Notes: generated from the sequence alone by a model not told the origin. Shown: positions 14,170-23,607, numbered from the stretch's first letter. The stretch: DNA of 64,000 nucleotides from a virus (IMGVR_UViG_3300027971_000031:1-64000); one strand, 5' to 3'. Made by a program: numbers and translations.

Positions 14170-14580
14170 ATGAAAAAAAGAATATATTTGGATGACGTAA
14201 GGACTCCTATTGAAAAAGACAATTGGGTTATTGTTCGTTCTTATGACGAATTTGTTGAGAATATAAATGAAATCGGATTGGAAAACATCGATATGATTTC
14301 TTTGGACCATGATTTGGGTGATACTGCAATGGCAGAATGGCACAAAAATGTATATAAAAATTACGAGTTGAACTACGATAACATCACCGAAAAAACTGGT
14401 ATGGATTGTGCGAAATGGTTGGTTGAGCAATGGATGGATGGGAAACCTGTTGTTGATGTGGTTGTTCACTCTGCAAATGCGATTGGTAGTGGAAATATGA
14501 TGGGTTACATCAACAATTACCGTCATATTGCTCGATTACCTCAAAATTGTATCAGAGTCCGAATCGAGCATACCGTGTAA
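14170..14580 (+). CDS. cyclic-phosphate-processing receiver-domain protein
   Basis: IYLDDVRTP, ISLDHDLG, TGMDCAKWL, VHSANAIG motifs. Confidence 0.8.
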   Translation: MKKRIYLDDVRTPIEKDNWVIVRSYDEFVENINEIGLENIDMISLDHDLGDTAMAEWHKNVYKNYELNYDNITEKTGMDCAKWLVEQWMDGKPVVDVVVHSANAIGSGNMMGYINNYRHIARLPQNCIRVRIEHTV

Positions 14581-14620
14581 AAATTAAGTATTAGGTATTT
14601 AAAGTATAATTTACATTATC

Positions 14621-14788
14621 ATGACGGACCCAACAAATAAAACACAAGAAAAATTTACATACACAACTCAAGATTTAGAAGAGATGAAAGAGTGGGATGT
14701 AACTTTAATGGATGGTTTAGAAAATAAACTACCTCATTATGTTGAAGATGAATGGGATAACATTCACGGAGACATATTCCACTTTTAA
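14621..14788 (+). CDS. small hypothetical protein (55 aa)
   Basis: read by hand: MTDPTNKTQEK...EWDVTLMDGLE... Confidence 0.5.
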   Translation: MTDPTNKTQEKFTYTTQDLEEMKEWDVTLMDGLENKLPHYVEDEWDNIHGDIFHF

Positions 14789-14793
14789 CTATT

Positions 14794-14867
14794 GGACCCT
14801 TAGCTCAGCTGGTCAGAGCAGGTCACTCATAATGACAAGGTCACAGGTTCAAACCCTGTAGGGTCCA
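14794..14867 (+). tRNA. tRNA with CAT anticodon, probably Ile2 (lysidine type)
   Basis: GGACCCT/AGGGTCC-A acceptor, loop CTCATAA, resembles ileX-type tRNAs. Confidence 0.85.
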
Positions 14868-14872
14868 CAAAA

Positions 14873-15259
14873 ATGAATAACAAAATGAAAATTGCGGTAA
14901 TAGCCCACGATGGTAAAAAGGCAGATATGGTTGCCTTCATTATGAAAAGATTGGAGTTCTTTAAACAAGTTGATGTTATTGCAACTGGAACCACAGGAAA
15001 ACATATTGAACATGCGGGATTAGATGTCCAATGTATGAAGTCAGGACCACTTGGTGGAGACGCTCAAATTGCATCCATGATTGCTGATGGTGAGATATCG
15101 GGTGTAGTATTCTTTATTGACCCGTTGGAAGTTCATCCCCACCAAGTTGATGTAAATATGTTATTAAGGATTTGTAATGTATATAACACACCTTTAGCAA
15201 CCAACTATATGACCGCATCATATATTATTTCAGGATTGGAAAAAAAATTGATAAACTAA
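14873..15259 (+). CDS. mgsA: methylglyoxal synthase
   Basis: IAHDGKK, ATGTTG, SGPLGGDAQI, DPL..HPHQVDV, PLATN motifs. Confidence 0.95.
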   Translation: MNNKMKIAVIAHDGKKADMVAFIMKRLEFFKQVDVIATGTTGKHIEHAGLDVQCMKSGPLGGDAQIASMIADGEISGVVFFIDPLEVHPHQVDVNMLLRICNVYNTPLATNYMTASYIISGLEKKLIN

Positions 15260-15276
15260 AAAAAAAAATAAATAAT

Positions 15277-15537
15277 ATGCCAGATTTTAGTACATACATC
15301 GACATCGAACCGTCAGAATATGTTGACGAGTGTTCAAAGAGTGACATTAAAGAACTGATTGATGAATTGGTTTTTCACGGTTACATTAACAAAAGTGATA
15401 GTTTAATTGACAAAGAGAAAATTAGTTTAATGGAACAGGAGTTCCATGAAAAACTTGACAAACTCAAATTAAAATACTACAACTTATCACCTGATGATGA
15501 AGAAACTTTAAAAAACTTATTTTTAAAATACGTTTAG
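15277..15537 (+). CDS. hypothetical protein
   Basis: ORF track. Confidence 0.6.
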   Translation: MPDFSTYIDIEPSEYVDECSKSDIKELIDELVFHGYINKSDSLIDKEKISLMEQEFHEKLDKLKLKYYNLSPDDEETLKNLFLKYV

Positions 15538-15583
15538 GATTGATTTTTTGACTTTTAGAACTATTTATACTATAATTACAACA

Positions 15584-15667
15584 ATGAAAAATTTGAATAC
15601 ACTTACAGCAACTTTAGCACCGACGAATGGCGGGGATAGAGATATGTGCTCAAGTGTTCAGATTTAA
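15584..15667 (+). CDS. leader peptide 1, MKNLNTLTATLAPTNGGDRDMCSSVQI (putative attenuator uORF)
   Basis: 27-aa ORF after TATTTATA (15562-15569) and TTGACT-N17-TATAAT (15548-15576); codons 3-20 match the tRNAs of the downstream block. Confidence 0.85.
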   Translation: MKNLNTLTATLAPTNGGDRDMCSSVQI

Positions 15668-15726
15668 TCAAAGGTAATAAAGCCAAAAATGATAAACCCT
15701 GAACACAAAATGTTCAGGGTTTTTTG
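15654..15726 (+). promoter_or_regulatory. attenuator 1: anti-terminator plus intrinsic terminator
   Basis: terminator aaaccctgaaca(15694-705)/tgttcagggttt(15711-722) plus T-run; gtgttcag(15654-661) is complementary to ctgaacac(15699-706). Confidence 0.85.
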
Positions 15727-15745
15727 TTTTATAAGGATTTTTTAT

Positions 15746-15767
15746 TATCTTTGTAGTGTTCTTTGAC
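15746..15767 (+). promoter_or_regulatory. Bacteroidetes-type -7 promoter element followed by boxA-like sequence
   Basis: TATCTTTG 15746-53 with TTTG at 15723-26; TGTTCTTTGAC 15757-67. Confidence 0.65.
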
Positions 15768-15785
15768 TTATGAGAAAAATATAAT

Positions 15786-15862
15786 CGAGATGTTGGGGAG
15801 TCAGGTTACCCCGCCTGCTTTGGGAGCAGGAGAACTCGCAAGTTCGAATCTTGCCATCTCGA
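15786..15862 (+). tRNA. tRNA-Pro(TGG)
   Basis: cloverleaf; stem cctgc/gcagg, loop TTTGGGA. Confidence 0.93.
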
Positions 15863-15869
15863 CGATTAC

Positions 15870-15941
15870 GTCTTCTTAGCTCAGTGGTAGAGCACTTGGC
15901 TGTTAACCAAGTGGTCCATGGTTCGAATCCATGAGGGGACG
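15870..15941 (+). tRNA. tRNA-Asn(GTT)
   Basis: cloverleaf; loop CTGTTAA. Confidence 0.93.
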
Positions 15942-15993
15942 CAAAGGGTCTGAGGGAGTCCCTAAAACGGATAAATAACGTGTCCCTCTCCAT

Positions 15994-16069
15994 GCGAGAG
16001 TAGCTCAGTCGGTAGAGCTTCAGTTTACCAAACTGAAAGTCGCCAGTTCGAATCTGGTCTCTCGCTCCA
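15994..16069 (+). tRNA. tRNA-Gly(ACC), unusual A34 anticodon
   Basis: GCGAGAG/CTCTCGC-T-CCA glycine-type acceptor; stem tcagt/actga, loop TTACCAA. Confidence 0.88.
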
Positions 16070-16071
16070 TT

Positions 16072-16146
16072 GCGGGTATCGCCTAGTTGGTTATGGCATC
16101 ACACTTCCAATGTGAAATAGGGTCGGTTCGAGACCGACTACCCGCT
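16072..16146 (+). tRNA. tRNA-Gly(TCC)
   Basis: cloverleaf; loop CTTCCAA, U73. Confidence 0.93.
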
Positions 16147-16148
16147 CA

Positions 16149-16515
16149 ATGAGTAAGAGATACTCAGTAGTTTTGGTACCGTTACTGATAAATGGTATAG
16201 CTGAGGCCTCTAACAGCTTAATAGATGAGGTCGTCGGAAAAAAGGCAAGAACACCATCTTGACCTCCGAGTATATGGTTGACTTTTAAGCGGTAAGACGC
16301 GATGGGTTTTGAATCAGGAAAACTATGAATATCTACTCATCATAATCTCATGGTGGGAAATGTGAGAGTAATCGGTCGAGCTACATTTAGCCGTTAATCA
16401 CAATATTGGTTTGGAAACAGAGGTAGCCGTGACTTTTCCAACCGAGCCAACCAAGCTTACTATGATACGGGTTAATACCTGTGGATTAGAGGTGACGGTC
16501 AGGAAAGACTGACAA
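16149..16515 (+). ncRNA. unassigned structured RNA region between tRNAs
   Basis: no long ORF, raised GC, several hairpins; atgagta (16149) can pair with tactcat (ending 16340). Confidence 0.45.
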
Positions 16516-16519
16516 TTTC

Positions 16520-16595
16520 GGTCTCATGGTTGAATGGCTACAATTCCACCCTGTCACGGTGCGAGGTACGGGTTCGAATCCCGTTGGGACCGCCA
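16520..16595 (+). tRNA. tRNA-Asp(GTC)
   Basis: loop CTGTCAC, G73, encoded CCA. Confidence 0.9.
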
Positions 16596-16600
16596 AAATT

Positions 16601-16674
16601 GCCTCCTTAGCTCAGCTGGCTAGAGCAGATGATTTGTAATCATCAGGTCGTGGGTTCGAATCCCTCAGGAGGCT
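16601..16674 (+). tRNA. tRNA-Thr(TGT)
   Basis: stem gatga/tcatc, loop TTTGTAA. Confidence 0.93.
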
Positions 16675-16691
16675 CAAAAGTTTTTTAATAA

Positions 16692-16781
16692 TATGAAATA
16701 TAACGATTTTAAATTTGAACGAAAAATATGTATTGGGTTTGTTCTCATAATTTTTGGACTTATTATTTTATTAATAAGTTG
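16692..16781 (+). CDS. 29-aa single-TM microprotein
   Basis: MKYNDFKFERKICIGFVLIIFGLIILLIS read by hand. Confidence 0.4.
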
Positions 16782-16797
16782 ACAATACAATTTAAAA

Positions 16798-16872
16798 GGG
16801 GTTAAATGTACCAAGGCTTGGCGAGAAACACTTGCAATGTTTCTGAGGTGGGTTCGATTCCCACTAGCTCCA
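16798..16872 (+). tRNA. tRNA-Ala(TGC)
   Basis: G3:U70 pair, loop CTTGCAA; atypical D-arm. Confidence 0.85.
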
Positions 16873-16884
16873 CAAAATAAAATT

Positions 16885-17232
16885 ATGGCACATCCAAACT
16901 TACACGCAAAAAGTTCTGCAAAGAAATTCGGTGGAAAACCTGAAGATTATATTCATTTACACGAATGGTTGGATGAAACCAAAGGTTGGATTGGTGATTC
17001 ATTACACAGGATGTTCCGACACCATAGTGAAGGAATCTTTGAAATGGAAAAACGATTTGGTCCTGAATTTAAAAATAGTGATGGAAAAATTGTTTATACT
17101 CGTTATGTTGGAGAACAACATGTAAGGGAAGATTGTAATAATTACCTTCCATCCGCAAAAGAATGGATTACCAATATCTCAGAAAATAAACGACCTCAGT
17201 GGATGTTAAGGACCATGAACATAGAAGACTGA
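16885..17232 (+). CDS. DUF6915-like protein
   Basis: MAHPNLHAKSSAKKFGG...HRMFRHHSEGIF...VGEQHVREDC; ATG at 16885 (ORF-track start lies inside tRNA-Ala). Confidence 0.7.
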   Translation: MAHPNLHAKSSAKKFGGKPEDYIHLHEWLDETKGWIGDSLHRMFRHHSEGIFEMEKRFGPEFKNSDGKIVYTRYVGEQHVREDCNNYLPSAKEWITNISENKRPQWMLRTMNIED

Positions 17233-17243
17233 TATTTATTAAC

Positions 17244-17960
17244 ATGAAACAAATTTTAACACCAGAAGAGAAACAATACCTTAGAAGAACATCAAATTAT
17301 CTTCAATCTATGGGTATGAGACAAGGATATATAGAAATAGAGCTTGAACAAGAAGCTGGCTCAATTGATTACGATAATATTGACTGGAAGTATGTAAGTC
17401 ATTTTTCAAATAACTATAGTGCCGATATTCCTGAAGGATTATTACCAATATTAAAAAAAGTTGTTAAGTATGCAGATTCTTTAGACAATTTAAATAATGA
17501 TATTGATAATTTAAGTTATCAAAGAATTGAAATTAGAATCGATTCTTTTCAAAAAGAAATCTCCGTAAACCATGAATTTTTTTATTATGGACGAGGTGAA
17601 GAAAATTCAATTGATTATGACTCTAAAGAAGATATGGAACAATTTGACCGATGGATGGATAATGATTTAAAAGAAGTTGAAGTTCCATCTGACGGTAAAT
17701 TAAGATTAGATTATGATGGTGGTGGTGATTCAGGATATATTCATAACGAATTTCAACCAACGGGAGATGCGGTACCAGCGGGAATTGAAGATTGGTGTTA
17801 CCAACAACTTGAACGTCATTTTGGTGGTTGGGAAATCAATGAAGGTTCTGATGGGTCATTCATATTTGATTTCAAAAATTCAGTCGTTACTTTGAGTCAT
17901 ACATACAACACCGAAGAACATGAAAGTGATACTTTATATGAAGAAAGTTTTGACAAGTAA
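17244..17960 (+). CDS. DUF6878-like protein
   Basis: YDGGGDSG...GGWEINEGSDG motif; ATG 17244 after TATTTATT. Confidence 0.65.
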   Translation: MKQILTPEEKQYLRRTSNYLQSMGMRQGYIEIELEQEAGSIDYDNIDWKYVSHFSNNYSADIPEGLLPILKKVVKYADSLDNLNNDIDNLSYQRIEIRIDSFQKEISVNHEFFYYGRGEENSIDYDSKEDMEQFDRWMDNDLKEVEVPSDGKLRLDYDGGGDSGYIHNEFQPTGDAVPAGIEDWCYQQLERHFGGWEINEGSDGSFIFDFKNSVVTLSHTYNTEEHESDTLYEESFDK

Positions 17961-18010
17961 GTTGTATCTTTAAAAAAAATCAATTATATTTGTACCATAG
18001 TAAAATAAAT

Positions 18011-18098
18011 GCTCGGGTGGTGGAATAGGTAGACACGCCAGACTTAAAATCTTGTGGGCCTTGCGCCCGTGCGGGTTCGATTCCCGCTCCGAGTACCA
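18011..18098 (+). tRNA. tRNA-Leu(TAA)
   Basis: long variable arm, loop CTTAAAA, encoded CCA. Confidence 0.93.
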
Positions 18099-18103
18099 AA
18101 TTT

Positions 18104-18177
18104 GCCCTTGTAGCTCAGCAGGATAGAGCAACGGTTTTCTAAACCGTAGGTCACAGGTTCGAATCCTGTCGGGGGTA
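18104..18177 (+). tRNA. tRNA-Arg(TCT)
   Basis: stem acggt/accgt, loop TTTCTAA. Confidence 0.93.
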
Positions 18178-18180
18178 CAA

Positions 18181-18277
18181 TATATCATATCCTCAGGTAC
18201 CCGTACAGCAGTGAGACGGGCTAAGTTAGATACAATTCCTCGGAGCTGGGAGTAGAATGCCTGTACGATGTGATATA
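18181..18277 (+). ncRNA. unassigned structured RNA (~97 nt)
   Basis: tatatcatatc/gatgtgatata closing stem; caggta/tgcctg and cccgt/acggg inner helices. Confidence 0.6.
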
Positions 18278-18280
18278 AAT

Positions 18281-18361
18281 GCCTTGGTGGTGGAATGGTA
18301 GACACGTATGTCTTAGAAACATATGTCTTATGACGTGAGGGTTCGAGTCCCTCCTAGGGTA
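18281..18361 (+). tRNA. tRNA-Leu(TAG)
   Basis: stem tatgt/acata, loop CTTAGAA, variable arm. Confidence 0.92.
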
Positions 18362-18363
18362 CT

Positions 18364-18519
18364 ATGAAATTGAATATATATGCGGTTATTATTGTCGTGG
18401 TAAATGTTGCGTTTTCTATGTTTATGATGAACAAGTCAAAAACCTATCAAACACGTTTAAACGATACAACAATTCAAAAAGATTCAACATTTGCAACAAA
18501 TTTATTTGACAAAAAGTAA
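18364..18519 (+). CDS. small membrane protein (51 aa)
   Basis: MKLNIYAVIIVVVNVAFSMFMMNK... read by hand. Confidence 0.5.
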   Translation: MKLNIYAVIIVVVNVAFSMFMMNKSKTYQTRLNDTTIQKDSTFATNLFDKK

Positions 18520-18551
18520 ACTTTTCCTATATTAGATATAATTATATAACA

Positions 18552-18653
18552 ATGAGAACAACAATGGTCCATATTTCGTCGTTTAAGCAACAAGAGATTT
18601 GTAGCTGGTATCGCTATGTGGAAAATTGTAGTTCGGAAAATATGGTAAAATAA
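18552..18653 (+). CDS. leader peptide 2, MRTTMVHISSFKQQEICSWYRYVENCSSENMVK (putative attenuator uORF)
   Basis: 33-aa ORF; codons 5-24 match the tRNAs of the downstream block. Confidence 0.85.
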   Translation: MRTTMVHISSFKQQEICSWYRYVENCSSENMVK

Positions 18654-18715
18654 CAAGTTAGAAATAACAATAGGTTAAACCCCGAACTTCTAAAAAAAGT
18701 TTGGGGTTTTTTTTT
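18630..18715 (+). promoter_or_regulatory. attenuator 2: anti-terminator plus intrinsic terminator
   Basis: terminator aaaccccgaactt(18677-689)/aagtttggggttt(18697-709) plus T-run; agttcgg(18630-636) is complementary to ccgaact(18682-688). Confidence 0.85.
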
Positions 18716-18746
18716 ACCCGATGGTGCAGGAATAGAAAAAAGTTTT

Positions 18747-18787
18747 TATCTTTGTACCATCAAACAGAATGAAAGAGTTCTTTGACA
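18747..18787 (+). promoter_or_regulatory. Bacteroidetes-type -7 element and boxA-like sequence
   Basis: TATCTTTG 18747-54; GTTCTTTGACA 18777-87. Confidence 0.65.
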
Positions 18788-18803
18788 TGTTGGAAACCAA
18801 AAT

Positions 18804-18875
18804 AGTCCCTTAGCTCAGTGGTAGAGCCCTTGCCTTACATGCAAGTTGTCGTAGGTTCGAATCCTACAGGGACTA
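18804..18875 (+). tRNA. tRNA-Val(TAC)
   Basis: stem cttgc/gcaag, loop CTTACAT. Confidence 0.93.
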
Positions 18876-18881
18876 CAATTT

Positions 18882-18953
18882 GGCCCGTTCGACTATCGGT
18901 TAGGTCGTCAGGTTTTCATCCTGAAAAGAGGGGTTCGACTCCCCTACGGGCTA
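18882..18953 (+). tRNA. tRNA-Glu(TTC)
   Basis: stem tcagg/cctga, loop TTTTCAT. Confidence 0.93.
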
Positions 18954-19003
18954 CGAAAAAAAGATTTGGTAGATTAAAATATTCTACTTATCTTTGTAAG
19001 ATA

Positions 19004-19138
19004 TTGATAGTGGTTTTTCCCACCCAACGGATGTCGACAATCCAGGGTGGAATTAGAATTCATCACCCTCTGCCGAGGCCTTGTAAAACTCAGGAAGCAG
19101 TTAAGATTGGAGCGAGACGGGTACTCCATCACTATCAA
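19004..19138 (+). ncRNA. unassigned structured RNA (~135 nt)
   Basis: ttgatagtg/cactatcaa closing stem, internal hairpins, own promoter at 18965-18996. Confidence 0.6.
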
Positions 19139-19144
19139 CCACAT

Positions 19145-19230
19145 TTGAATGTAAAGGGTACGTGCCGCAGCGGAATGACATTACGAAACCCTTATCCACT
19201 CCAGTCATTCGGTTTTGGATAAACATTCAA
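19145..19230 (+). ncRNA. unassigned pseudoknot or kissing-loop RNA (~86 nt)
   Basis: ttgaatgt/acattcaa closing stem; aagggt/accctt and atcca/tggat arms; gaatgac(19173-79) complementary to gtcattc(19204-10). Confidence 0.6.
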
Positions 19231-19236
19231 TAATTT

Positions 19237-19309
19237 GGTGTGATAGCTCAGTAGGTAGAGCAATAGACTGAAAATCTATGTGCCGCAAGTTCGATTCTTG
19301 CTCTCACCA
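19237..19309 (+). tRNA. tRNA-Phe(GAA)
   Basis: stem ataga/tctat, loop CTGAAAA. Confidence 0.92.
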
Positions 19310-19314
19310 CAAAT

Positions 19315-19420
19315 AGTCAAGTGGACGTAATGCGGGATGGTACCCAAGTCCCCAACTCTTAGGAGGTAAGGTTGTCTACTCCGTCTTGTACGGTATTCGG
19401 TTCGAGTCCGACCTTGACTA
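19315..19420 (+). ncRNA. tRNA-like element A (no canonical anticodon arm)
   Basis: AGTCAAG/CTTGACT-A acceptor and GTTCGAGT T-loop; middle not tRNA-like. Confidence 0.65.
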
Positions 19421-19467
19421 CTAAAAATAAATTTGGTAGATTAAAATATTACCCATATCTTTGTATT

Positions 19468-19746
19468 ATGAAAAATAAGGAAAATTTAGAATATTGGTTT
19501 TGTAAAATAGGTCCTATTGACAGAAGTGAAATACCTCTTGGTGGTGACGGTCCATTGAGAAGTGCAGTTGAAGGTACGTTTATTGATATGTTTGGAGAAC
19601 AAGCGAAAACCTGTGGTAGTGGTTGGGGATTAAAAGAAGAAATGAAAACAAGATTGGATATCATTTCTTACCTACATATCACAGACCCAAGTGGTGAAAT
19701 GTTAAAACAAATTGATGAAATCTTGAGTAAACGACCAATGATTTAA
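19468..19746 (+). CDS. hypothetical protein
   Basis: ATG 19468 directly after repeated promoter 19432-19463. Confidence 0.65.
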   Translation: MKNKENLEYWFCKIGPIDRSEIPLGGDGPLRSAVEGTFIDMFGEQAKTCGSGWGLKEEMKTRLDIISYLHITDPSGEMLKQIDEILSKRPMI

Positions 19747-19754
19747 AATAAAAT

Positions 19755-19912
19755 AGTCAGGTGGCGGAATTGGTAGACGCTAATGGAGTTATACTATCAA
19801 ACACAAAGGGTGCGGCGTAGATGGGAACTACTACATTATCTCTTGGACGCAAGAGAGCAATATAACCCTAACCATTTGGTATAACATGCAGGTTCGAATC
19901 CTGTCCTGACTA
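19755..19912 (+). ncRNA. tRNA-like element B (expanded central domain)
   Basis: AGTCAGG/CCTGACT-A acceptor, Leu-like D-arm GCGGAATTGGTAGACGC, T-arm GCAGGTTCGAATCCTGT, ~105-nt insert. Confidence 0.75.
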
Positions 19913-19958
19913 CAAAAATAAATTTGGTAGATTAAAATATTCGTTGTATATTTGTGGT

Positions 19959-20162
19959 ATGGAAAATAAAGTATGGCACAAGATTGAAATTGCAATTGAA
20001 GAACAAACCGTCGAGGTTTATCCGACTGACGAATTTGATGGTATCATTATTGAAACCAAAGAATTGGATGGAAAAGGAAGTCCGAGGTTGTACCTTAACA
20101 AAGATGAAATGGAATTTTTGATTATCAAAATGCAAGAAATGATGTCATACGTTAAAGGTTAA
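19959..20162 (+). CDS. hypothetical protein
   Basis: ATG 19959 directly after repeated promoter 19923-19954. Confidence 0.65.
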   Translation: MENKVWHKIEIAIEEQTVEVYPTDEFDGIIIETKELDGKGSPRLYLNKDEMEFLIIKMQEMMSYVKG

Positions 20163-20169
20163 AATAAAT

Positions 20170-20247
20170 AGTCAGGTGGCGGAACGGATAGACGCAACCA
20201 CGTAAGTGGTCAAACCGGTATTACAGGTTCGAATCCTGTCCTGACTA
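20170..20247 (+). ncRNA. tRNA-like element C (anticodon loop replaced by GTAA tetraloop)
   Basis: same acceptor, D- and T-arm as element B; accac-GTAA-gtggt hairpin. Confidence 0.75.
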
Positions 20248-20371
20248 CAAACCTCAGGATTAATTACCCTGAGACTGAGAGGTTCGAAACTCTTGATTGG
20301 TTATAGTGTATGGGGCACGGCAGAACGTAGTAGGGACGCAGGAGTAGGGTTCAAATCCTTATTAATCAGCA

Positions 20372-20531
20372 AATGGTAGTAAAAAAGTGTAGGTTGATAA
20401 ACGTGGAGAGACGTGACACAAGGGTACACACTAAGGATAGGTAGTAATACCCAACTCTCTGATGGTGTGTGAAGCTGGGCCCTTTCGAGGTTGCTAAGGC
20501 GAGATTCCTGATAAATTCAACTACTACTATT
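20372..20531 (+). ncRNA. unassigned structured RNA (~160 nt)
   Basis: aatggtagta/tactactatt closing stem, gttga/tcaac inner helix. Confidence 0.5.
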
Positions 20532-20536
20532 TAAAT

Positions 20537-20610
20537 GGTGGTTATAGCTCAGTAGGTAGAGCAAAGGTTTGTGGTACCTTGTGTCATGGGTTCGATTCCC
20601 ATTAGTCACC
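20537..20610 (+). tRNA. tRNA-His(GTG)
   Basis: G-1:C73, loop TTGTGGT. Confidence 0.92.
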
Positions 20611-20611
20611 C

Positions 20612-20708
20612 AAAGTGTTCACAACGGACAAGGCTTAGGCTCAAAGTATGGGCGAGAACTTACCTATATTCCCTGAGGTGGGTAGCGAGTGGTTGACCAG
20701 AACACTTT
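20612..20708 (+). ncRNA. unassigned structured RNA (~97 nt)
   Basis: aaagtgttc/gaacacttt closing stem around a GC-rich core. Confidence 0.5.
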
Positions 20709-20756
20709 TTTTTCTTATAATGTGGTAGTTTTCCTAACCAACACATATTTATATGT

Positions 20757-21101
20757 ATGGAAAAGAAAAACAAAAGAGGTGGTGGAAATAGATTAGCATA
20801 TGAAAACGGACTTCAACAATATGTTAAATCTATTAGATTGACAAACGAAGAAGTTTTTATTGAAAATTCAACGTATGCGAGACATCACATTAAAAGAAGA
20901 ATTATTGAAGAAAATATGGTTGATTACAAATGTGATGAGTGTGGTAATCTTGGTATTTGGAATAATAATCCATTACCATTAATTTTAGACCACATAAATG
21001 GCATAAATAACGATAACAGATTAGAAAATCTAAGATTCGTTTGTAGTAACTGTGATTCCCAATTACCAACCTATAAGAATAGAAGAGGTAGTAAAGGGTA
21101 A
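20757..21101 (+). CDS. HNH endonuclease inserted in the tRNA array
   Basis: CDECG...LDHINGINNDNRLENLRFVCSNC. Confidence 0.92.
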   Translation: MEKKNKRGGGNRLAYENGLQQYVKSIRLTNEEVFIENSTYARHHIKRRIIEENMVDYKCDECGNLGIWNNNPLPLILDHINGINNDNRLENLRFVCSNCDSQLPTYKNRRGSKG

Positions 21102-21110
21102 AATTAATAC

Positions 21111-21198
21111 GGAGAGATGGCAGAGTTGGTCTATTGCGTCAGACTTGAAATCTGAAGTACTTGCAAGGGTACCGTGGGTTCGAATCCTACTCTCTCCG
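21111..21198 (+). tRNA. tRNA-Ser(TGA)
   Basis: loop CTTGAAA, long variable arm, G73. Confidence 0.93.
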
Positions 21199-21203
21199 CA
21201 CAT

Positions 21204-21275
21204 TGTCACGTAACTCAGCGGTAGAGTTCTTCTCTGATACGGAAGCGGTCATAGGTTCAAATCCTATCGTGACAA
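21204..21275 (+). tRNA. tRNA-Ile(GAT)
   Basis: stem cttct/ggaag, loop CTGATAC. Confidence 0.88.
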
Positions 21276-21281
21276 CACAAT

Positions 21282-21356
21282 GTCTTCGTAGCTCAGCTGG
21301 TTTAGAGCACTAAACTTTTAATTTAGGGGTCACAGGTTCGAACCCTGTCGGGGACA
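21282..21356 (+). tRNA. tRNA-Lys(TTT)
   Basis: stem ctaaa/tttag, loop CTTTTAA. Confidence 0.92.
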
Positions 21357-21362
21357 CTAAAA

Positions 21363-21434
21363 GGTCGGTTGGCTGAGTGGCTTAGGCGGTAGTCTGCAAA
21401 ACTATTTACATAGGTTCAATTCCTATACCGACCT
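21363..21434 (+). tRNA. tRNA-Cys(GCA)
   Basis: loop CTGCAAA, U73. Confidence 0.92.
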
Positions 21435-21442
21435 CAATATAC

Positions 21443-21515
21443 ACGTCTGTAGCTCAGTTGGTAGAGCATTGGTCTCCAAAACCAAGTGTCGGTGGTTCGA
21501 ACCCATCCAGTCGTG
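21443..21515 (+). tRNA. tRNA-Trp(CCA)
   Basis: stem ttggt/accaa, loop CTCCAAA. Confidence 0.92.
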
Positions 21516-21588
21516 CAAGACTAACACAGAATGAATGATACGAGTCCCCAAAGCTCGAAAGGAGTCAGGGTTTTGGTTTAACTTATTT

Positions 21589-21670
21589 GGGAGTGTCGCA
21601 TAGCGGCAATTGCTGCGGATTGTAAACCCGCCCTCATTAGAGTTCATAGGTTCGAGTCCTATCACTCCCA
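21589..21670 (+). tRNA. tRNA-Tyr(GTA)
   Basis: loop TTGTAAA, variable arm. Confidence 0.92.
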
Positions 21671-21676
21671 CTAAAT

Positions 21677-21747
21677 TGTCCTCTCGTATAACGGCAGTAC
21701 ATCTGGTTTTGGTCCAGAGAATTGAGGTTCGAATCCTTGGGGGACAA
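21677..21747 (+). tRNA. tRNA-Gln(TTG)
   Basis: stem tctgg/ccaga, loop TTTTGGT. Confidence 0.92.
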
Positions 21748-21752
21748 CAATT

Positions 21753-21827
21753 GGTTTTGTGGTGTAACGGAGAGCACATGAAGCTACGGACTTCAGAGCG
21801 AGGGTTCGAATCCTTCCAAAACCACCA
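21753..21827 (+). tRNA. tRNA-Arg(ACG)
   Basis: stem tgaag/cttca, loop CTACGGA, encoded CCA. Confidence 0.9.
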
Positions 21828-21828
21828 T

Positions 21829-21903
21829 GGCGATGTAGTTCAGTGGGAGAACACTTGATTCATATCCAAGAAGTCGGAGGTTCAATTCCTCCCATCGCCA
21901 CCA
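21829..21903 (+). tRNA. tRNA-Met(CAT), elongator type
   Basis: GGCGATG/CATCGCC-A-CCA; loop TTCATAT. Confidence 0.85.
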
Positions 21904-21932
21904 CTTTTCCAACTGTCATAGTATTTATATGT

Positions 21933-22406
21933 ATGGAAAAAAGAGTAACACTAACAAAAGAACAATTATTTAAAGTAATACAGTTAAATGAGCAGGAAAA
22001 CAAAAAAGAGACTGTTGATGATGTTGTTGAAGATGGAAATATTGTTGATATGATTTCAATATTACTTCATTCAAGAAGTCAGGCCCATATATTTCATTGG
22101 CAAACAAAATCACAATCATCATTTGCTGAACATATGGCGTTAGGTGGATATTATGAAGAAATTGGAGAATTAATAGACGGAATTGTTGAAGGTTACCAAG
22201 GTAAAAACGATTTGTTAACAGGTTATAAAACGATTAAAATGGTTGATTATAAATCAACAGAACAACTAATAACTTACTTTAAAGGATTAGATGATAATAT
22301 TGAAAAAAATAGAAAGGCGGTCAAAGAATCTTATATTCAAAACCAAATTGATACAATTCAAGAATTAATTTATAGTACATTATATAAATTGAGATTCTTA
22401 AAATAA
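21933..22406 (+). CDS. Dps/ferritin-like protein (DUF5856-like)
   Basis: QAHIFHWQT...FAEHMALGGYYE..IDGIVEGYQG...TLYKLRFLK; ATG 21933 after TATTTATA. Confidence 0.75.
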   Translation: MEKRVTLTKEQLFKVIQLNEQENKKETVDDVVEDGNIVDMISILLHSRSQAHIFHWQTKSQSSFAEHMALGGYYEEIGELIDGIVEGYQGKNDLLTGYKTIKMVDYKSTEQLITYFKGLDDNIEKNRKAVKESYIQNQIDTIQELIYSTLYKLRFLK

Positions 22407-22430
22407 TATTAAAATTCACTATTATTAATA

Positions 22431-22466
22431 ATCCCTCTGAGTTTTAAGTTCAGGGGGATTTTTTTT
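22431..22466 (+). terminator. intrinsic terminator
   Basis: atccctctga/tcagggggat hairpin plus T-run. Confidence 0.75.
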
Positions 22467-22479
22467 ATATTTAAATTAT

Positions 22480-22553
22480 TGGAACGTAGCTCAGTTGGTG
22501 AGAGCAGTTGTCTTATACACAACAGGTCATGGGTTCAACTCCCATCGTTCCAA
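22480..22553 (+). tRNA. tRNA-Ile(TAT), rare anticodon
   Basis: stem gttgt/acaac, loop CTTATAC. Confidence 0.88.
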
Positions 22554-22558
22554 CAACA

Positions 22559-22645
22559 GGAAGGTTACCCAAGTGGTGAAGGGGTCAGTTTGCTAAACTG
22601 ATAGGCTGAGCAATCGGCGCGAGGGTTCGAGCCCCTCACCTTCCG
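22559..22645 (+). tRNA. tRNA-Ser(GCT)
   Basis: stem tcagt/actga, loop TTGCTAA, long variable arm. Confidence 0.93.
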
Positions 22646-22706
22646 CAAAAAAATAATTATTCAAATAATTGACGAATCACGGTTTCTAACTTATATTTAT
22701 TATTCA

Positions 22707-22910
22707 TTGAACATGAAAAACATTATGAAAAACACAATTCTTACATTATTCACAATCGTAGCTTTAGCCTCTTGTGGAAACGAAACAACCAAAACTAACT
22801 CAGATTCAACCGTAGTTGTAGATTCAACTATGTGTGACTCATTAACATCAGATTCAACCAAGTGTTGCAAAGACACTGCAAGTGTTGAGAAGATGTCAGA
22901 AAAAAAGTAA
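22707..22910 (+). CDS. small lipoprotein
   Basis: MKNTILTLFTIVALASCG lipobox. Confidence 0.7.
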   Translation: MNMKNIMKNTILTLFTIVALASCGNETTKTNSDSTVVVDSTMCDSLTSDSTKCCKDTASVEKMSEKK

Positions 22911-22959
22911 TTGGTTTTTGACTACAAACAAAAAACCCACTTTTCAGTGGGTTTTTTTA

Positions 22960-23607
22960 TTATAATAACTTTTTAATTTTTTTAATATTTTCCTGAAGTT
23001 TTTTTGGATTACCTTTAAAAGATTCTTCAATTCCAATACTCTTTAAAATTTGACCCCCAATTTTTCTAGCAAATGAACCAGCACCTGATTCTCTATCATC
23101 TGTGTTTGTTGTTGATGTACTTCCTGAAGTTGTAGTCTCATCACTACCATATTGTAAATGATAATGTCCTCCTGTCGATGCTTTACTTGGTTTAGTATAT
23201 TCATCAAGATATTTAAACCCTGGTGTATTTGTTACTGTAGAATTTAATATTTTAAGAAATGCCGCAGCGCTTTGACTATCGTATGGTGATATTACAACAT
23301 CAATTGCGTTACCCATTGTGTGTTGACTTTTGTAACCTAAATTTTGATGATATCTATCATTTCCACTTGTTACAGTAACCATTGCGGTAGGGTAATCGGC
23401 TTTATATTGTTTAAGAATTGTTGCAACTATATCAGTTAACTTATCATTTACATCACCTCCAGTTGTTAAGTCATAATTTTTTTCTTTATAACCTAAACTA
23501 CTTAAGGTTGACCTTAAATTTGATGTTGTTTCATACAAATTATTTTTTTCAAGAATTGTATCGTATAATGATAATATATCATCAATTAATTTTTTTTGCG
23601 CACTCAT
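22960..23607 (-). CDS. peptidase M15-like zinc peptidase domain protein
   Basis: TSGND...SQHTMGNAIDV...HYHLQY. Confidence 0.65.
   Translation of the reverse strand: MSAQKKLIDDILSLYDTILEKNNLYETTSNLRSTLSSLGYKEKNYDLTTGGDVNDKLTDIVATILKQYKADYPTAMVTVTSGNDRYHQNLGYKSQHTMGNAIDVVISPYDSQSAAAFLKILNSTVTNTPGFKYLDEYTKPSKASTGGHYHLQYGSDETTTSGSTSTTNTDDRESGAGSFARKIGGQILKSIGIEESFKGNPKKLQENIKKIKKLL

What the first reader, a model, noticed from the sequence alone, without database searches (positions are those of the whole stretch)
15548..22645. Codon-matched leader-peptide attenuators controlling two phage tRNA arrays (putative tRNA-depletion sensor)
Seen: 25 of the 26 tRNAs fall into two blocks, each preceded by a short uORF, an anti-terminator and an intrinsic terminator. 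Block 1 (15786-18361) is Pro, Asn, Gly, Gly, Asp, Thr, Ala, Leu, Arg(TCT), Leu; leader 1 codons 3-20 (NLNTLTATLAPTNGGDRD) are 18/18 from this set and cover all 8 amino acids. Block 2 (18804-22645) is Val, Glu, Phe, His, Ser, Ile, Lys, Cys, Trp, Tyr, Gln, Arg(ACG), Met, Ile, Ser; leader 2 codons 5-24 (MVHISSFKQQEICSWYRYVE) are 20/20 from this set and cover all 13. Isoacceptors also match: AGA in leader 1 versus CGC in leader 2, and both TCG and AGC Ser in leader 2. Together the two windows sample all 20 amino acids. Established: trp/his-type attenuation works by ribosome stalling that frees an anti-terminator, and hosts cleave tRNAs as anti-phage defence (PrrC, PARIS, some retron and toxin-antitoxin effectors). 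Inference: loss of any one tRNA stalls the ribosome and turns on the block holding its replacement. That would be a multiplexed, on-demand counter-defence. I do not know of a described phage attenuator of this kind.
Basis: partly seen in the sequence, partly recalled or inferred. Interest (0 to 1): 0.97.

Follow-up and report, generated by a model that had tools for sequence, protein, structure and literature searches.

The report
Leader-peptide attenuators gating phage tRNA genes
In this large lake phage each block of tRNA genes sits behind a tiny test gene spelled in the amino acids those tRNAs carry and wired to a switchable transcription stop, so the phage probably makes more of a tRNA set when ribosomes read its codons slowly, a trp-operon-style control I could not find described for tRNA genes.

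Summary
Two short ORFs (15584-15667, 27 codons; 18552-18653, 33 codons) each precede an intrinsic terminator and a tRNA block. Codons 3-20 of the first use only, and all, of the 8 amino acids of block 1. Codons 5-24 of the second use only, and all, of the 13 of block 2. The real partition is the single best of 50,388.

Both leaders have the three alternative pairings of a classical attenuator, and the antiterminator helix shows compensatory changes in relatives.

The strongest evidence is comparative. In one relative tRNA-Pro has moved behind a third leader/terminator unit. That third leader carries three Pro codons, and leader 1 has none. Over 28 leader/block pairs from four terminator families, a tRNA in the block is represented in the leader in 217 of 225 cases, against 167 of 307 where the block lacks it.

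Limits: nothing shows translation or regulated read-through. A consensus promoter follows each terminator here, and lake RNA contigs suggest most block-1 RNA starts there. The counter-defence role is untested.

I found no paper on such control of tRNA genes. This scan has noted the same design on other phage DNA.

The parts
15548..15576 (+). Promoter-like site of leader 1 (TTGACT, 17 nt, TATAAT); the ATG lies 7 nt after it.
   Evidence: Best-scoring site of the scan. It is the only exact match to the pattern TTGACW-N16-18-TATAAT in the window. A -35/-10-like pair is kept in relatives while the spacer varies.
15584..15667 (+). Leader ORF 1, 27 codons plus stop. Codons 3-20 (15590-15643) are the test codons for block 1.
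   Evidence: The frame is open in all relatives and indels come in threes.
15590..15604 (+). Region 1 of attenuator 1, which pairs with region 2 when no ribosome is on it.
   Evidence: Minimum-free-energy fold of the full leader. The same pairing is predicted in all family-A variants.
15653..15663 (+). Region 2 of attenuator 1, the antiterminator strand (GTGTTCAG, 15654-15661), in codons 24-27.
   Evidence: It pairs with 15699-15706 in the fold without region 4. Duplex energy is -12.9 kcal/mol, matched by 8 of 1000 shuffles. Compensatory changes are seen in relatives.
15694..15733 (+). Intrinsic terminator 1 (regions 3 and 4, stem 15694-15722) with its T tract.
   Evidence: -16.3 kcal/mol.
15746..15766 (+). 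Bacteroidota-type -7 box TATCTTTG followed by GTTCTTTGA: the block's own promoter-like site downstream of the terminator.
   Evidence: The motif pair is common before tRNA arrays and other genes in IMG/VR phages. An RNA contig of depth 224 begins at 15761.
15786..18362 (+). tRNA block 1: Pro, Asn, Gly, Gly, Asp, Thr, Ala, Leu, Arg-TCT, Leu. Two protein genes lie between Ala and Leu.
18506..18533 (+). Promoter-like site of leader 2 (TTGACA, 16 nt, TATATT).
   Evidence: TTGACA, 16 nt, TAYWAT is kept in relatives.
18552..18653 (+). Leader ORF 2, 33 codons plus stop. Codons 5-24 (18564-18623) are the test codons for block 2.
18556..18575 (+). Region 1 of attenuator 2.
18627..18637 (+). Region 2 of attenuator 2, the antiterminator strand (AGTTCGG, 18630-18636), in codons 26-29.
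   Evidence: It pairs with 18682-18688. The helix is kept in all relatives.
18677..18718 (+). Intrinsic terminator 2 with a run of 9 T.
   Evidence: -16.4 kcal/mol.
18747..18785 (+). TATCTTTG box and GTTCTTTGA motif downstream of terminator 2.
18804..22646 (+). tRNA block 2: Val, Glu, Phe, His, Ser, Ile, Lys, Cys, Trp, Tyr, Gln, Arg-ACG, Met, Ile-TAT, Ser-GCT. It also holds tRNA-like elements and protein genes.
22430..22460 (+). Third terminator-like hairpin inside block 2, after a 187-aa ORF and 20 nt before tRNA-Ile-TAT. It has no leader of its own.

Best explanation
The two units are translation-coupled transcription attenuators of the trp/his type, placed in front of tRNA genes. I take the steps in order.

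1. Transcription starts at the conserved promoter-like site and a ribosome starts on the leader at once. These phages use no Shine-Dalgarno sequence.
2. The first 18-20 codons after the start are a test strip holding at least one codon for every tRNA species of the block behind.
3. If all are decoded quickly, the ribosome reaches the end of the leader and covers region 2. Region 3 then pairs with region 4, and RNA polymerase stops at the T tract.
4. If any test codon is decoded slowly because its tRNA is scarce, the ribosome stalls at least about 12 nt upstream of region 2. Region 2 stays free and pairs with region 3 as it emerges. The terminator cannot form, and transcription runs on into the tRNA genes.

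The result is negative feedback: supply of each tRNA set follows decoding demand.

Shown: the anatomy, its conservation, and the covariation of leader and block. Inferred: translation, stalling, read-through and their direction.

In this phage the blocks also have their own promoter after the terminator. The attenuator would therefore add an inducible share on top of a basal level. Attenuator 2 would also gate transcripts arriving from block 1.
For: 1. Composition match far beyond chance, for both leaders.

2. Match at isoacceptor level. In the window, AGA sits with Arg-TCT, CGC with Arg-ACG, and TCG and AGC with the two Ser tRNAs. In contig G001, Ser TCA/TCG codons sit with Ser-TGA and AGT codons with Ser-GCT.

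3. A natural experiment. Contig G001 (locus L285) has three leader/terminator units, and tRNA-Pro lies in the third block.
- Leader 1 has no Pro codon. Leader 3 has three.
- Leader 2 has lost Trp, Tyr and Lys. Trp and Tyr appear in leader 3, in front of their tRNAs.
- The codon-level matrix is diagonal: 20/27, 14/24 and 20/35, against 2-6 off the diagonal.

4. Substitutions keep the rule. Window versus L287:
- Leader 1 has 9 replacements and 1 insertion, all in-set.
- Leader 2 has 9 replacements and 2 insertions, all in-set. Val and Phe are lost at one place and regained at another.

5. Generality, over 28 distinct leader/block pairs from four terminator families.
- A tRNA in the block is represented in the leader in 217/225 cases. 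Where the block lacks it the figure is 167/307.
- Coverage is complete in 26/28.
- Shuffling blocks among leaders gives p=5e-5 overall and 7.5e-4 within family D.

6. Structure.
- All 18 family A and B leader units keep the 1:2, 2:3 and 3:4 pairings.
- The partner of the terminator's 5' arm always lies in the last codons of the ORF, in four unrelated sequence families. Shuffles do as well in 2-81 of 1000 each.
- The antiterminator helix is 99.2% paired, with two compensatory pairs and 0/500 shuffles as good.
- One covarying pair (G:C, A:T) lies in the terminator loop, so it serves only the antiterminator.

7. Geometry. In-block residues are 353/473 in the zone where a stalled ribosome leaves region 2 free, against 145/257 in the tail.

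8. In family D the terminator lies 10-20 nt from the first tRNA. The attenuator is then the only way into the array.
Against: - No direct evidence of translation or of regulated read-through.
- In this window a consensus TAnnTTTG promoter lies between each terminator and its block. In a lake metatranscriptome the contig over the leader and terminator (15322-15748) has depth 11, and the next contig (15761-16455) has depth 224. These are contigs only, which is weak evidence. Under those conditions most tRNA transcription seems independent of the leader.
- More TAnnTTTG boxes lie inside the blocks (17985, 18989, 19456), and a terminator-like hairpin lies inside block 2.
- Without region 4 the fold prefers 2:3 even without a ribosome, so the untranslated state may not terminate.
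- The match is not strict everywhere. One lineage (L040) has Phe and Glu in the leader-1 core and another (L289) has Val. The L288/L289 arrays have lost tRNAs that leader 1 still tests. Family C is noisy.
- The pairs compared are related, so the pooled p-values overstate independence.
- Each amino acid is tested by only 1-4 codons, not by a run as in his or trp, so sensitivity is uncertain.
Confidence: 0.78

Rival explanations
1. The same sensor, but serving counter-defence. The leaders detect loss of particular tRNAs to host anticodon nucleases (PrrC, PARIS, retron or toxin effectors, Schlafen-like nucleases). They switch on the block holding the phage's replacement copies. This is the first reader's full reading, and it refines the best explanation rather than replacing it.
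For: Phage tRNAs are known to rescue infection from tRNA-cleaving defences (PMC11464382, PMC11555353, PMC10264068; listed). A test strip with one codon per tRNA suits detecting the loss of any single species. A cyclic-phosphate-processing receiver domain protein (PF20274) lies at 14170-14580, beside the arrays.
Against: Nothing here links the unit to a defence system. No RtcB or T4-type RNA ligase 1 was found in the 107-kb contig, though it is only 36% complete. Plain supply-and-demand control explains the same anatomy, for example when phage codon usage meets a mismatched host tRNA pool.
Confidence: 0.3
2. The leaders sense decoding, but the output is not antitermination. For example, stalling might change the stability or processing of the upstream transcript. 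It might alter transcriptional interference with the downstream TAnnTTTG promoter. Or it might only insulate each block from upstream read-through.
For: Each block in this phage has its own strong promoter-like box just after the terminator. RNA contigs stop in or just after the terminators.
Against: The conserved and covarying 2:3 helix has no role in such models. In family D there is no downstream promoter, so read-through is the only route to the tRNAs. The positional bias of in-block codons fits antitermination.
Confidence: 0.1
3. The short ORFs are ordinary small genes, or untranslated spacers with terminators, and the match to the tRNA blocks is chance or shared descent.
For: Short ORFs are common in AT-rich DNA. 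The leaders of close relatives are homologous, so part of the match is inherited.
Against: - The real partition is the unique best of 50,388, and window probabilities are 3e-7 and 1e-8.
- The rule is kept through many substitutions, through the move of tRNA-Pro to a new block, and in sequence-unrelated families.
Confidence: 0.02

Closest known systems
Multivalent leader-peptide attenuators of enterobacterial amino-acid operons (ilvGMEDA leader: Ile/Leu/Val; thr leader: Thr/Ile), and the single-amino-acid trpL, hisL, leuL and pheL (textbook knowledge; Rfam Trp_leader, His_leader, Thr_leader, Phe_leader)
   Same: A short translated leader; regions 1-4 with mutually exclusive antiterminator and terminator; an intrinsic terminator just before the regulated genes; regulatory codons that name what the operon supplies; more than one amino acid sensed.
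   Different: - The regulated genes are tRNAs, not biosynthetic enzymes.
- 8 to 15 amino acids are tested, each by 1-4 scattered codons rather than runs.
- The variable that can be corrected is tRNA abundance, not amino-acid supply.
- There is no sequence or model similarity: Thr_leader scores 25 bits against a threshold of 55.
- The setting is a phage of a Bacteroidota-like host.
- In this phage a second promoter follows the terminator.
pheST attenuator (pheM leader) of E. coli, which controls phenylalanyl-tRNA synthetase (from memory, not checked here)
   Same: Leader-peptide attenuation applied to a gene of the translation apparatus, responding to the decoding of codons served by that apparatus.
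   Different: One amino acid; the target is a synthetase; it is a cellular gene.
T-box riboswitches of Firmicutes
   Same: Terminator/antiterminator switches that read the state of particular tRNAs and control translation-related genes.
   Different: T-boxes bind uncharged tRNA directly, have no leader peptide and control synthetases and amino-acid genes. No T-box match was found in the region.
The trn L-array of Anabaena sp. PCC 7120 (PMC8421152; PMC10272220)
   Same: A long, extra tRNA array that is kept low and induced when translation is impaired. It is the nearest published case of demand-controlled tRNA genes.
   Different: Control is by the repressor TrcR, which binds direct repeats over the -10 box. 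The 2021 paper never mentions attenuation or a leader peptide. There is no codon-by-codon match, and it sits on a cellular megaplasmid, not a phage.
Phage tRNAs as escape from tRNA-cleaving defences (T5 tRNA against PARIS, PMC11464382; retron evasion, PMC11555353; anticodon-loop variants, PMC10264068)
   Same: It gives a reason why a phage would need to replace particular tRNAs quickly.
   Different: From their titles and abstracts, those papers concern the tRNAs themselves; I did not read them in full. No sensing or attenuation mechanism for tRNA genes turned up in my searches.

Membership tests
Leader-peptide transcription attenuators (trp/his/thr/ilv type) | A short ORF lies between a promoter and the regulated genes, on the same strand. 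| tested here: met
   ORFs of 27 and 33 codons at 15584-15667 and 18552-18653, each after a conserved promoter-like site. The frame is open in all relatives.
Leader-peptide transcription attenuators (trp/his/thr/ilv type) | The leader is enriched in codons that name the product of the regulated genes. | tested here: met
   18/18 and 20/20 in-block residues with full coverage. Across 28 pairs the figure is 217/225 against 167/307.
Leader-peptide transcription attenuators (trp/his/thr/ilv type) | An intrinsic terminator (3:4) whose 5' arm can instead pair with an upstream segment (2:3) that overlaps the end of the leader ORF. | tested here: met
   Folds; duplexes of -9.5 to -13.7 kcal/mol in all variants; shuffle controls; compensatory changes.
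Leader-peptide transcription attenuators (trp/his/thr/ilv type) | A 1:2 hairpin that sequesters region 2 when the leader is not translated. | tested here: inconclusive
   It is predicted in the full-length folds of all variants. But the fold lacking region 4 prefers 2:3 over 1:2.
Leader-peptide transcription attenuators (trp/his/thr/ilv type) | Read-through depends on translation and on the supply of the cognate charged tRNA. | not testable with these tools
   It needs reporter, Term-seq or in vitro coupled assays. RNA contigs give presence only.
Rfam leader families (Trp_leader, His_leader, Thr_leader, Phe_leader, Leu_leader) | A match to the covariance model at its gathering score. | tested here: not met
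   The best is Thr_leader at 25.3 bits against 55, over 15605-15728, E=0.23. Nothing matches leader 2.
T-box riboswitch | A specifier loop and T-box motif that bind tRNA, and a match to the Rfam model. | tested here: not met
   No T-box match at E up to 1 in 14500-23000. A translated leader is present instead.
TrcR-type repression of tRNA L-arrays (Anabaena) | Tandem 9-nt direct repeats over the -10 box and transcription start, bound by an RHH repressor. | not tested
   I did not search for the repeats. The papers describe a mechanism without a leader or terminator.

The most novel reading that the evidence does not exclude
These units are a multiplexed tRNA-pool sensor. One test codon per tRNA species lets the phage detect the loss of any single tRNA, for instance to a host anticodon nuclease. 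It then switches on exactly the gene block that holds the replacement. The design has been reinvented or diversified in several terminator families across lake and marine phages. In some lineages it is the only route of transcription into the array.
Probability: 0.3. Interest if true: 0.95.

Novelty: new variant of a known kind. Interest (0 to 1): 0.88.

Why it matters
Why phages carry tRNA genes has been debated for fifty years. How those genes are regulated is almost unknown. A leader that lists the tRNAs behind it shows that the phage measures decoding of those very codons. That turns the question 'what are phage tRNAs for?' into a testable one: change the test codons or remove single tRNAs and measure read-through.

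It also extends classical attenuation from amino-acid supply to tRNA supply, and from one to three amino acids up to fifteen. It offers a compact natural part for sensing the availability of chosen tRNAs. And it gives a sequence rule for finding tRNA regulons in metagenomic phages: a short ORF covering every tRNA of the block, with an antiterminator in its last codons.

Tried and rejected
- Search of deposited phage genomes with 15300-19000 found only tRNA-sized matches and no relative.
- A 14-base pattern from leader 2 was too unspecific.
- A whole-leader MAFFT alignment misplaced region 2 by 3 nt between subgroups. I re-anchored the sequences on region 2 before counting pairs.
- Default ARAGORN misses the tRNA-Ala(UGC) of several relatives. 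This first looked like a counter-example. BLAST (97% and 96% identity) and a relaxed threshold recover it.
- Rfam has nothing at gathering score for the leaders.
- RtcB and T4 RNA ligase 1 were not found in the contig. The contig is 36% complete, and the ligase model rang in no control genome, so this says nothing.
- RNA contigs: no listed contig joins 15748 to 15761 or crosses terminator 2. Contigs cannot show ends or levels, so I use this only as a weak hint.
- The fold of the abundant RNA region 16160-16450 is not clearly better than shuffles (z = -1.8), and no similar DNA exists in deposited phages.
- Chance, and 'ordinary small gene', were considered and rejected on the statistics and the comparative data.

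Full report
**What is there.** The window is the first 64 kb of a 107-kb IMG/VR virus contig judged 36% complete. ARAGORN finds 27 tRNA genes on the + strand between 14794 and 22646, and Rfam agrees.

Two short ORFs stand out:
- 15584-15667, 27 codons
- 18552-18653, 33 codons

Each follows one of the three best sigma-70-like sites of the region (15548-15576 and 18506-18533). Each is followed after 23-26 nt by a strong intrinsic terminator (15694-15722 and 18677-18709, with T tracts). Block 1 (ten tRNAs, eight amino acids) lies between terminator 1 and leader 2. Block 2 (fifteen tRNAs, thirteen amino acids, plus tRNA-like elements) lies after terminator 2.

**Is the match real?** Yes. Codons 3-20 of leader 1 are 18 of 18 from the block-1 amino acids and cover all eight. 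Codons 5-24 of leader 2 are 20 of 20 from the block-2 set and cover all thirteen, including Trp, Cys, His and Met.
- With the phage's own amino-acid frequencies, such windows have probabilities of 3e-7 and 1e-8.
- Among all six-frame segments of the window, no other run combines such length with such coverage.
- Of the 50,388 ways to split the amino acids 8/13 with Arg in both sets, the real one is the single best.
- Whole peptides, with no window chosen, still give Fisher p = 6e-5.
- The isoacceptor detail holds: AGA with Arg-TCT, CGC with Arg-ACG, TCG and AGC with the two Ser tRNAs.

**Anatomy.** Full-length folds put codons 2-8 (region 1) against the last codons (region 2), and then form the terminator (regions 3 and 4). 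Without region 4, region 2 pairs with the terminator's 5' arm:
- attenuator 1: 15654-15661 with 15699-15706, 8 bp
- attenuator 2: 18630-18636 with 18682-18688, 7 bp

This is the layout of the trp attenuator. A ribosome at the stop codon would cover region 2. A ribosome stalled in the test codons would not.

**Relatives.** A protein inside block 1 and short DNA patterns brought in related IMG/VR contigs. Nine contigs give 18 leader units of the two types seen here.
- All keep the open frame, the 1:2, 2:3 and 3:4 pairings (2:3 at -9.5 to -13.7 kcal/mol; terminators at -13.8 to -19.5) and a T tract of six or more.
- On an alignment anchored at region 2, the antiterminator helix is paired in 99.2% of cells. 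Two pairs change on both sides, and no shuffle of 500 does as well. The terminator helix is 94.4% paired.
- An eighth pair covaries too (G:C in the window, A:T in L040 and L287). Its 3' partner lies in the terminator loop, so it can serve only the antiterminator.

**Covariation of leader and tRNA block.** This is the decisive part.

*Substitutions.* Between the window and L287, leader 1 differs by nine replacements and an insertion, all within the block-1 set. Leader 2 differs by nine replacements and two insertions, all within the block-2 set. Val and Phe are lost at one position and regained at another, so coverage stays complete.

*A moved tRNA.* In contig G001 (L285) there are three units.
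- tRNA-Pro lies not in block 1 but behind a third promoter-leader-terminator.
- Leader 1 there has no Pro codon, and leader 3 has three.
- Leader 2 has lost Trp, Tyr and Lys. Leader 3 carries Trp, Tyr, Cys and Gln, with AGT for Ser and CGT for Arg, in front of exactly those tRNAs.
- The codon-level matrix is diagonal: 20/27, 14/24 and 20/35, against 2-6 elsewhere.

*Other terminator families.* A blind scan of all fetched loci for short ORF plus terminator plus tRNA found two more families with unrelated terminator sequences. In each, the partner of the terminator's 5' arm again lies in the last codons of the ORF.

*All pairs together.* Over 28 distinct leader/block pairs:
- An amino acid with a tRNA in the block occurs in the leader in 217 of 225 cases. 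Where the block lacks it the figure is 167 of 307.
- Pro is 7/7 against 3/21, Trp 8/9 against 2/19, and Gln 8/9 against 4/19.
- Coverage is complete in 26 of 28.
- Shuffling blocks among leaders gives p = 5e-5 overall, 7.5e-4 within family D, 6e-4 within families A and B, and 0.03 within family C.
- In-block residues are concentrated where a stalled ribosome would leave region 2 free: 353/473 against 145/257 in the tail.

These pairs are related to one another, so the p-values are generous. The direction is nevertheless the same in every family.

**Apparent exceptions.**
- Missing tRNA-Ala in several relatives was a calling problem. BLAST finds it at 96-97% identity in L005 and L286. A relaxed ARAGORN threshold finds it in L285, L074, L084 and L043, along with a tRNA-Lys in block 3 of L285 that explains the Lys codons of leader 3.
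- Real exceptions remain. The leader-1 core holds Phe and Glu in L040 and Val in L289. The arrays of L288 and L289 have lost tRNAs that the leader still tests. Family C is noisy. Relatives with six tRNAs (L004, L006) have no leader at all.

**Host and promoters.** Only 3 of 56 long ORFs have a Shine-Dalgarno-like motif, and G+C is 32.6%. TAnnTTTGTA is twice as frequent as expected, 18 against 9. TAnnTTTG lies within 80 nt upstream of 10 of the 56 long ORFs. This fits a Bacteroidota-like host, so a leader without a Shine-Dalgarno sequence is normal here.

A consensus TATCTTTG box follows each terminator (15746, 18747), and more lie inside the blocks (17985, 18989, 19456). In family D, by contrast, the terminator is 10-20 nt from the first tRNA and no second promoter fits.

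**RNA.** The stretch occurs in freshwater and lake metagenomes and in six lake metatranscriptomes. These are held as contigs only, which cannot show ends or levels. In the best run:
- One contig covers 15322-15748 (upstream gene, leader 1, terminator) at depth 11.
- The next covers 15761-16455 at depth 224. It begins about 8 nt after the TATCTTTG box.
- A contig of depth 3 runs from tRNA-Leu through leader 2 and stops in the 5' arm of terminator 2.

As weak hints: the leaders are transcribed, block-1 transcripts run into leader 2, and under lake conditions most block-1 RNA comes from the downstream promoter. That is what an attenuator in its off state would look like. It is also what an attenuator of little importance would look like.

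**Comparison with what is known.**
- The closest mechanisms are the multivalent ilv and thr leaders and the trp, his, leu and phe leaders. The units work like these but are not members of any Rfam leader family.
- T-boxes sense tRNA without a peptide.
- The nearest published demand-controlled tRNA array, the Anabaena trn operon, uses the repressor TrcR and promoter repeats. The 2021 paper never mentions attenuation.
- Six full-text searches found no paper on leader-peptide control of tRNA genes.
- Notes of this scan report the same design on other DNA: phiCbK-like Caulobacter phages and marine and lake Bacteroidota phages. I did not check those loci. They agree with what I found independently in IMG/VR.

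**Verdict.** The attenuator reading is well supported by anatomy and by covariation. The regulatory output and the counter-defence role remain inference. In this particular phage the attenuators share control with ordinary promoters.

Noticed in passing
window 16163-16446: A discrete, very abundant RNA lies between tRNA-Gly-TCC and tRNA-Asp. In two lake metatranscriptomes, contigs of depth 350 and 83 span just this stretch with sequencing adapters at both ends. There is no Rfam match and no similar DNA in deposited phages. The fold is only weakly better than shuffles. The stretch overlaps most of a 37-codon ORF (16149-16262).
   Followed up: partly
window 14170-14580 (+): A 136-aa protein matches the cyclic-phosphate-processing receiver domain (PF20274, E=1e-22), just upstream of the first tRNA-Met. 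From memory, this domain keeps company with RNA repair genes.
   Followed up: no
window 19755-19912 and 20170-20248: Two tRNA-like elements lie inside block 2. One matches the Rfam tRNA model at 34.8 bits but is 158 nt long. The other is called by ARAGORN with a two-base 'anticodon' and scores 39.6 bits in Rfam. RNA contigs show joints that skip 19780-19884 and 19780-20222.
   Followed up: no
window 15994-16069: This tRNA-Gly has the anticodon ACC (A at position 34). The same gene in relatives has GCC.
   Followed up: no
L285 (contig G001), leader 3 on the - strand within L285:4770-4957: A third leader/terminator unit. It looks like a diverged copy of leader 2 that has taken over Pro, Ile, Lys, Cys, Trp, Tyr, Gln, Arg-ACG, Met and Ser-GCT. 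All three terminators of that phage share one 3' arm.
   Followed up: yes
L074, L115, L292, L296, L298, L300, L302 (family D); L043, L084, L307, L316, L322 and others (family C): Two further families of leader/terminator units stand before tRNA arrays in other IMG/VR phages. Their terminator sequences are unrelated to those here. In family D the terminator abuts the first tRNA.
   Followed up: partly
window 20693-21101: The third strong sigma-70-like site of the region (TTGACC, 17 nt, TATAAT) precedes a 114-aa ORF with weak HNH matches, inserted between tRNA-His and tRNA-Ser.
   Followed up: no
window 16798-16873 and relatives: The phage tRNA-Ala(UGC) is borderline for default ARAGORN. In Rfam it is listed under tmRNA rather than tRNA. 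It is missed in several relatives unless the threshold is relaxed. tRNA counts for these phages are therefore likely to be underestimates.
   Followed up: partly
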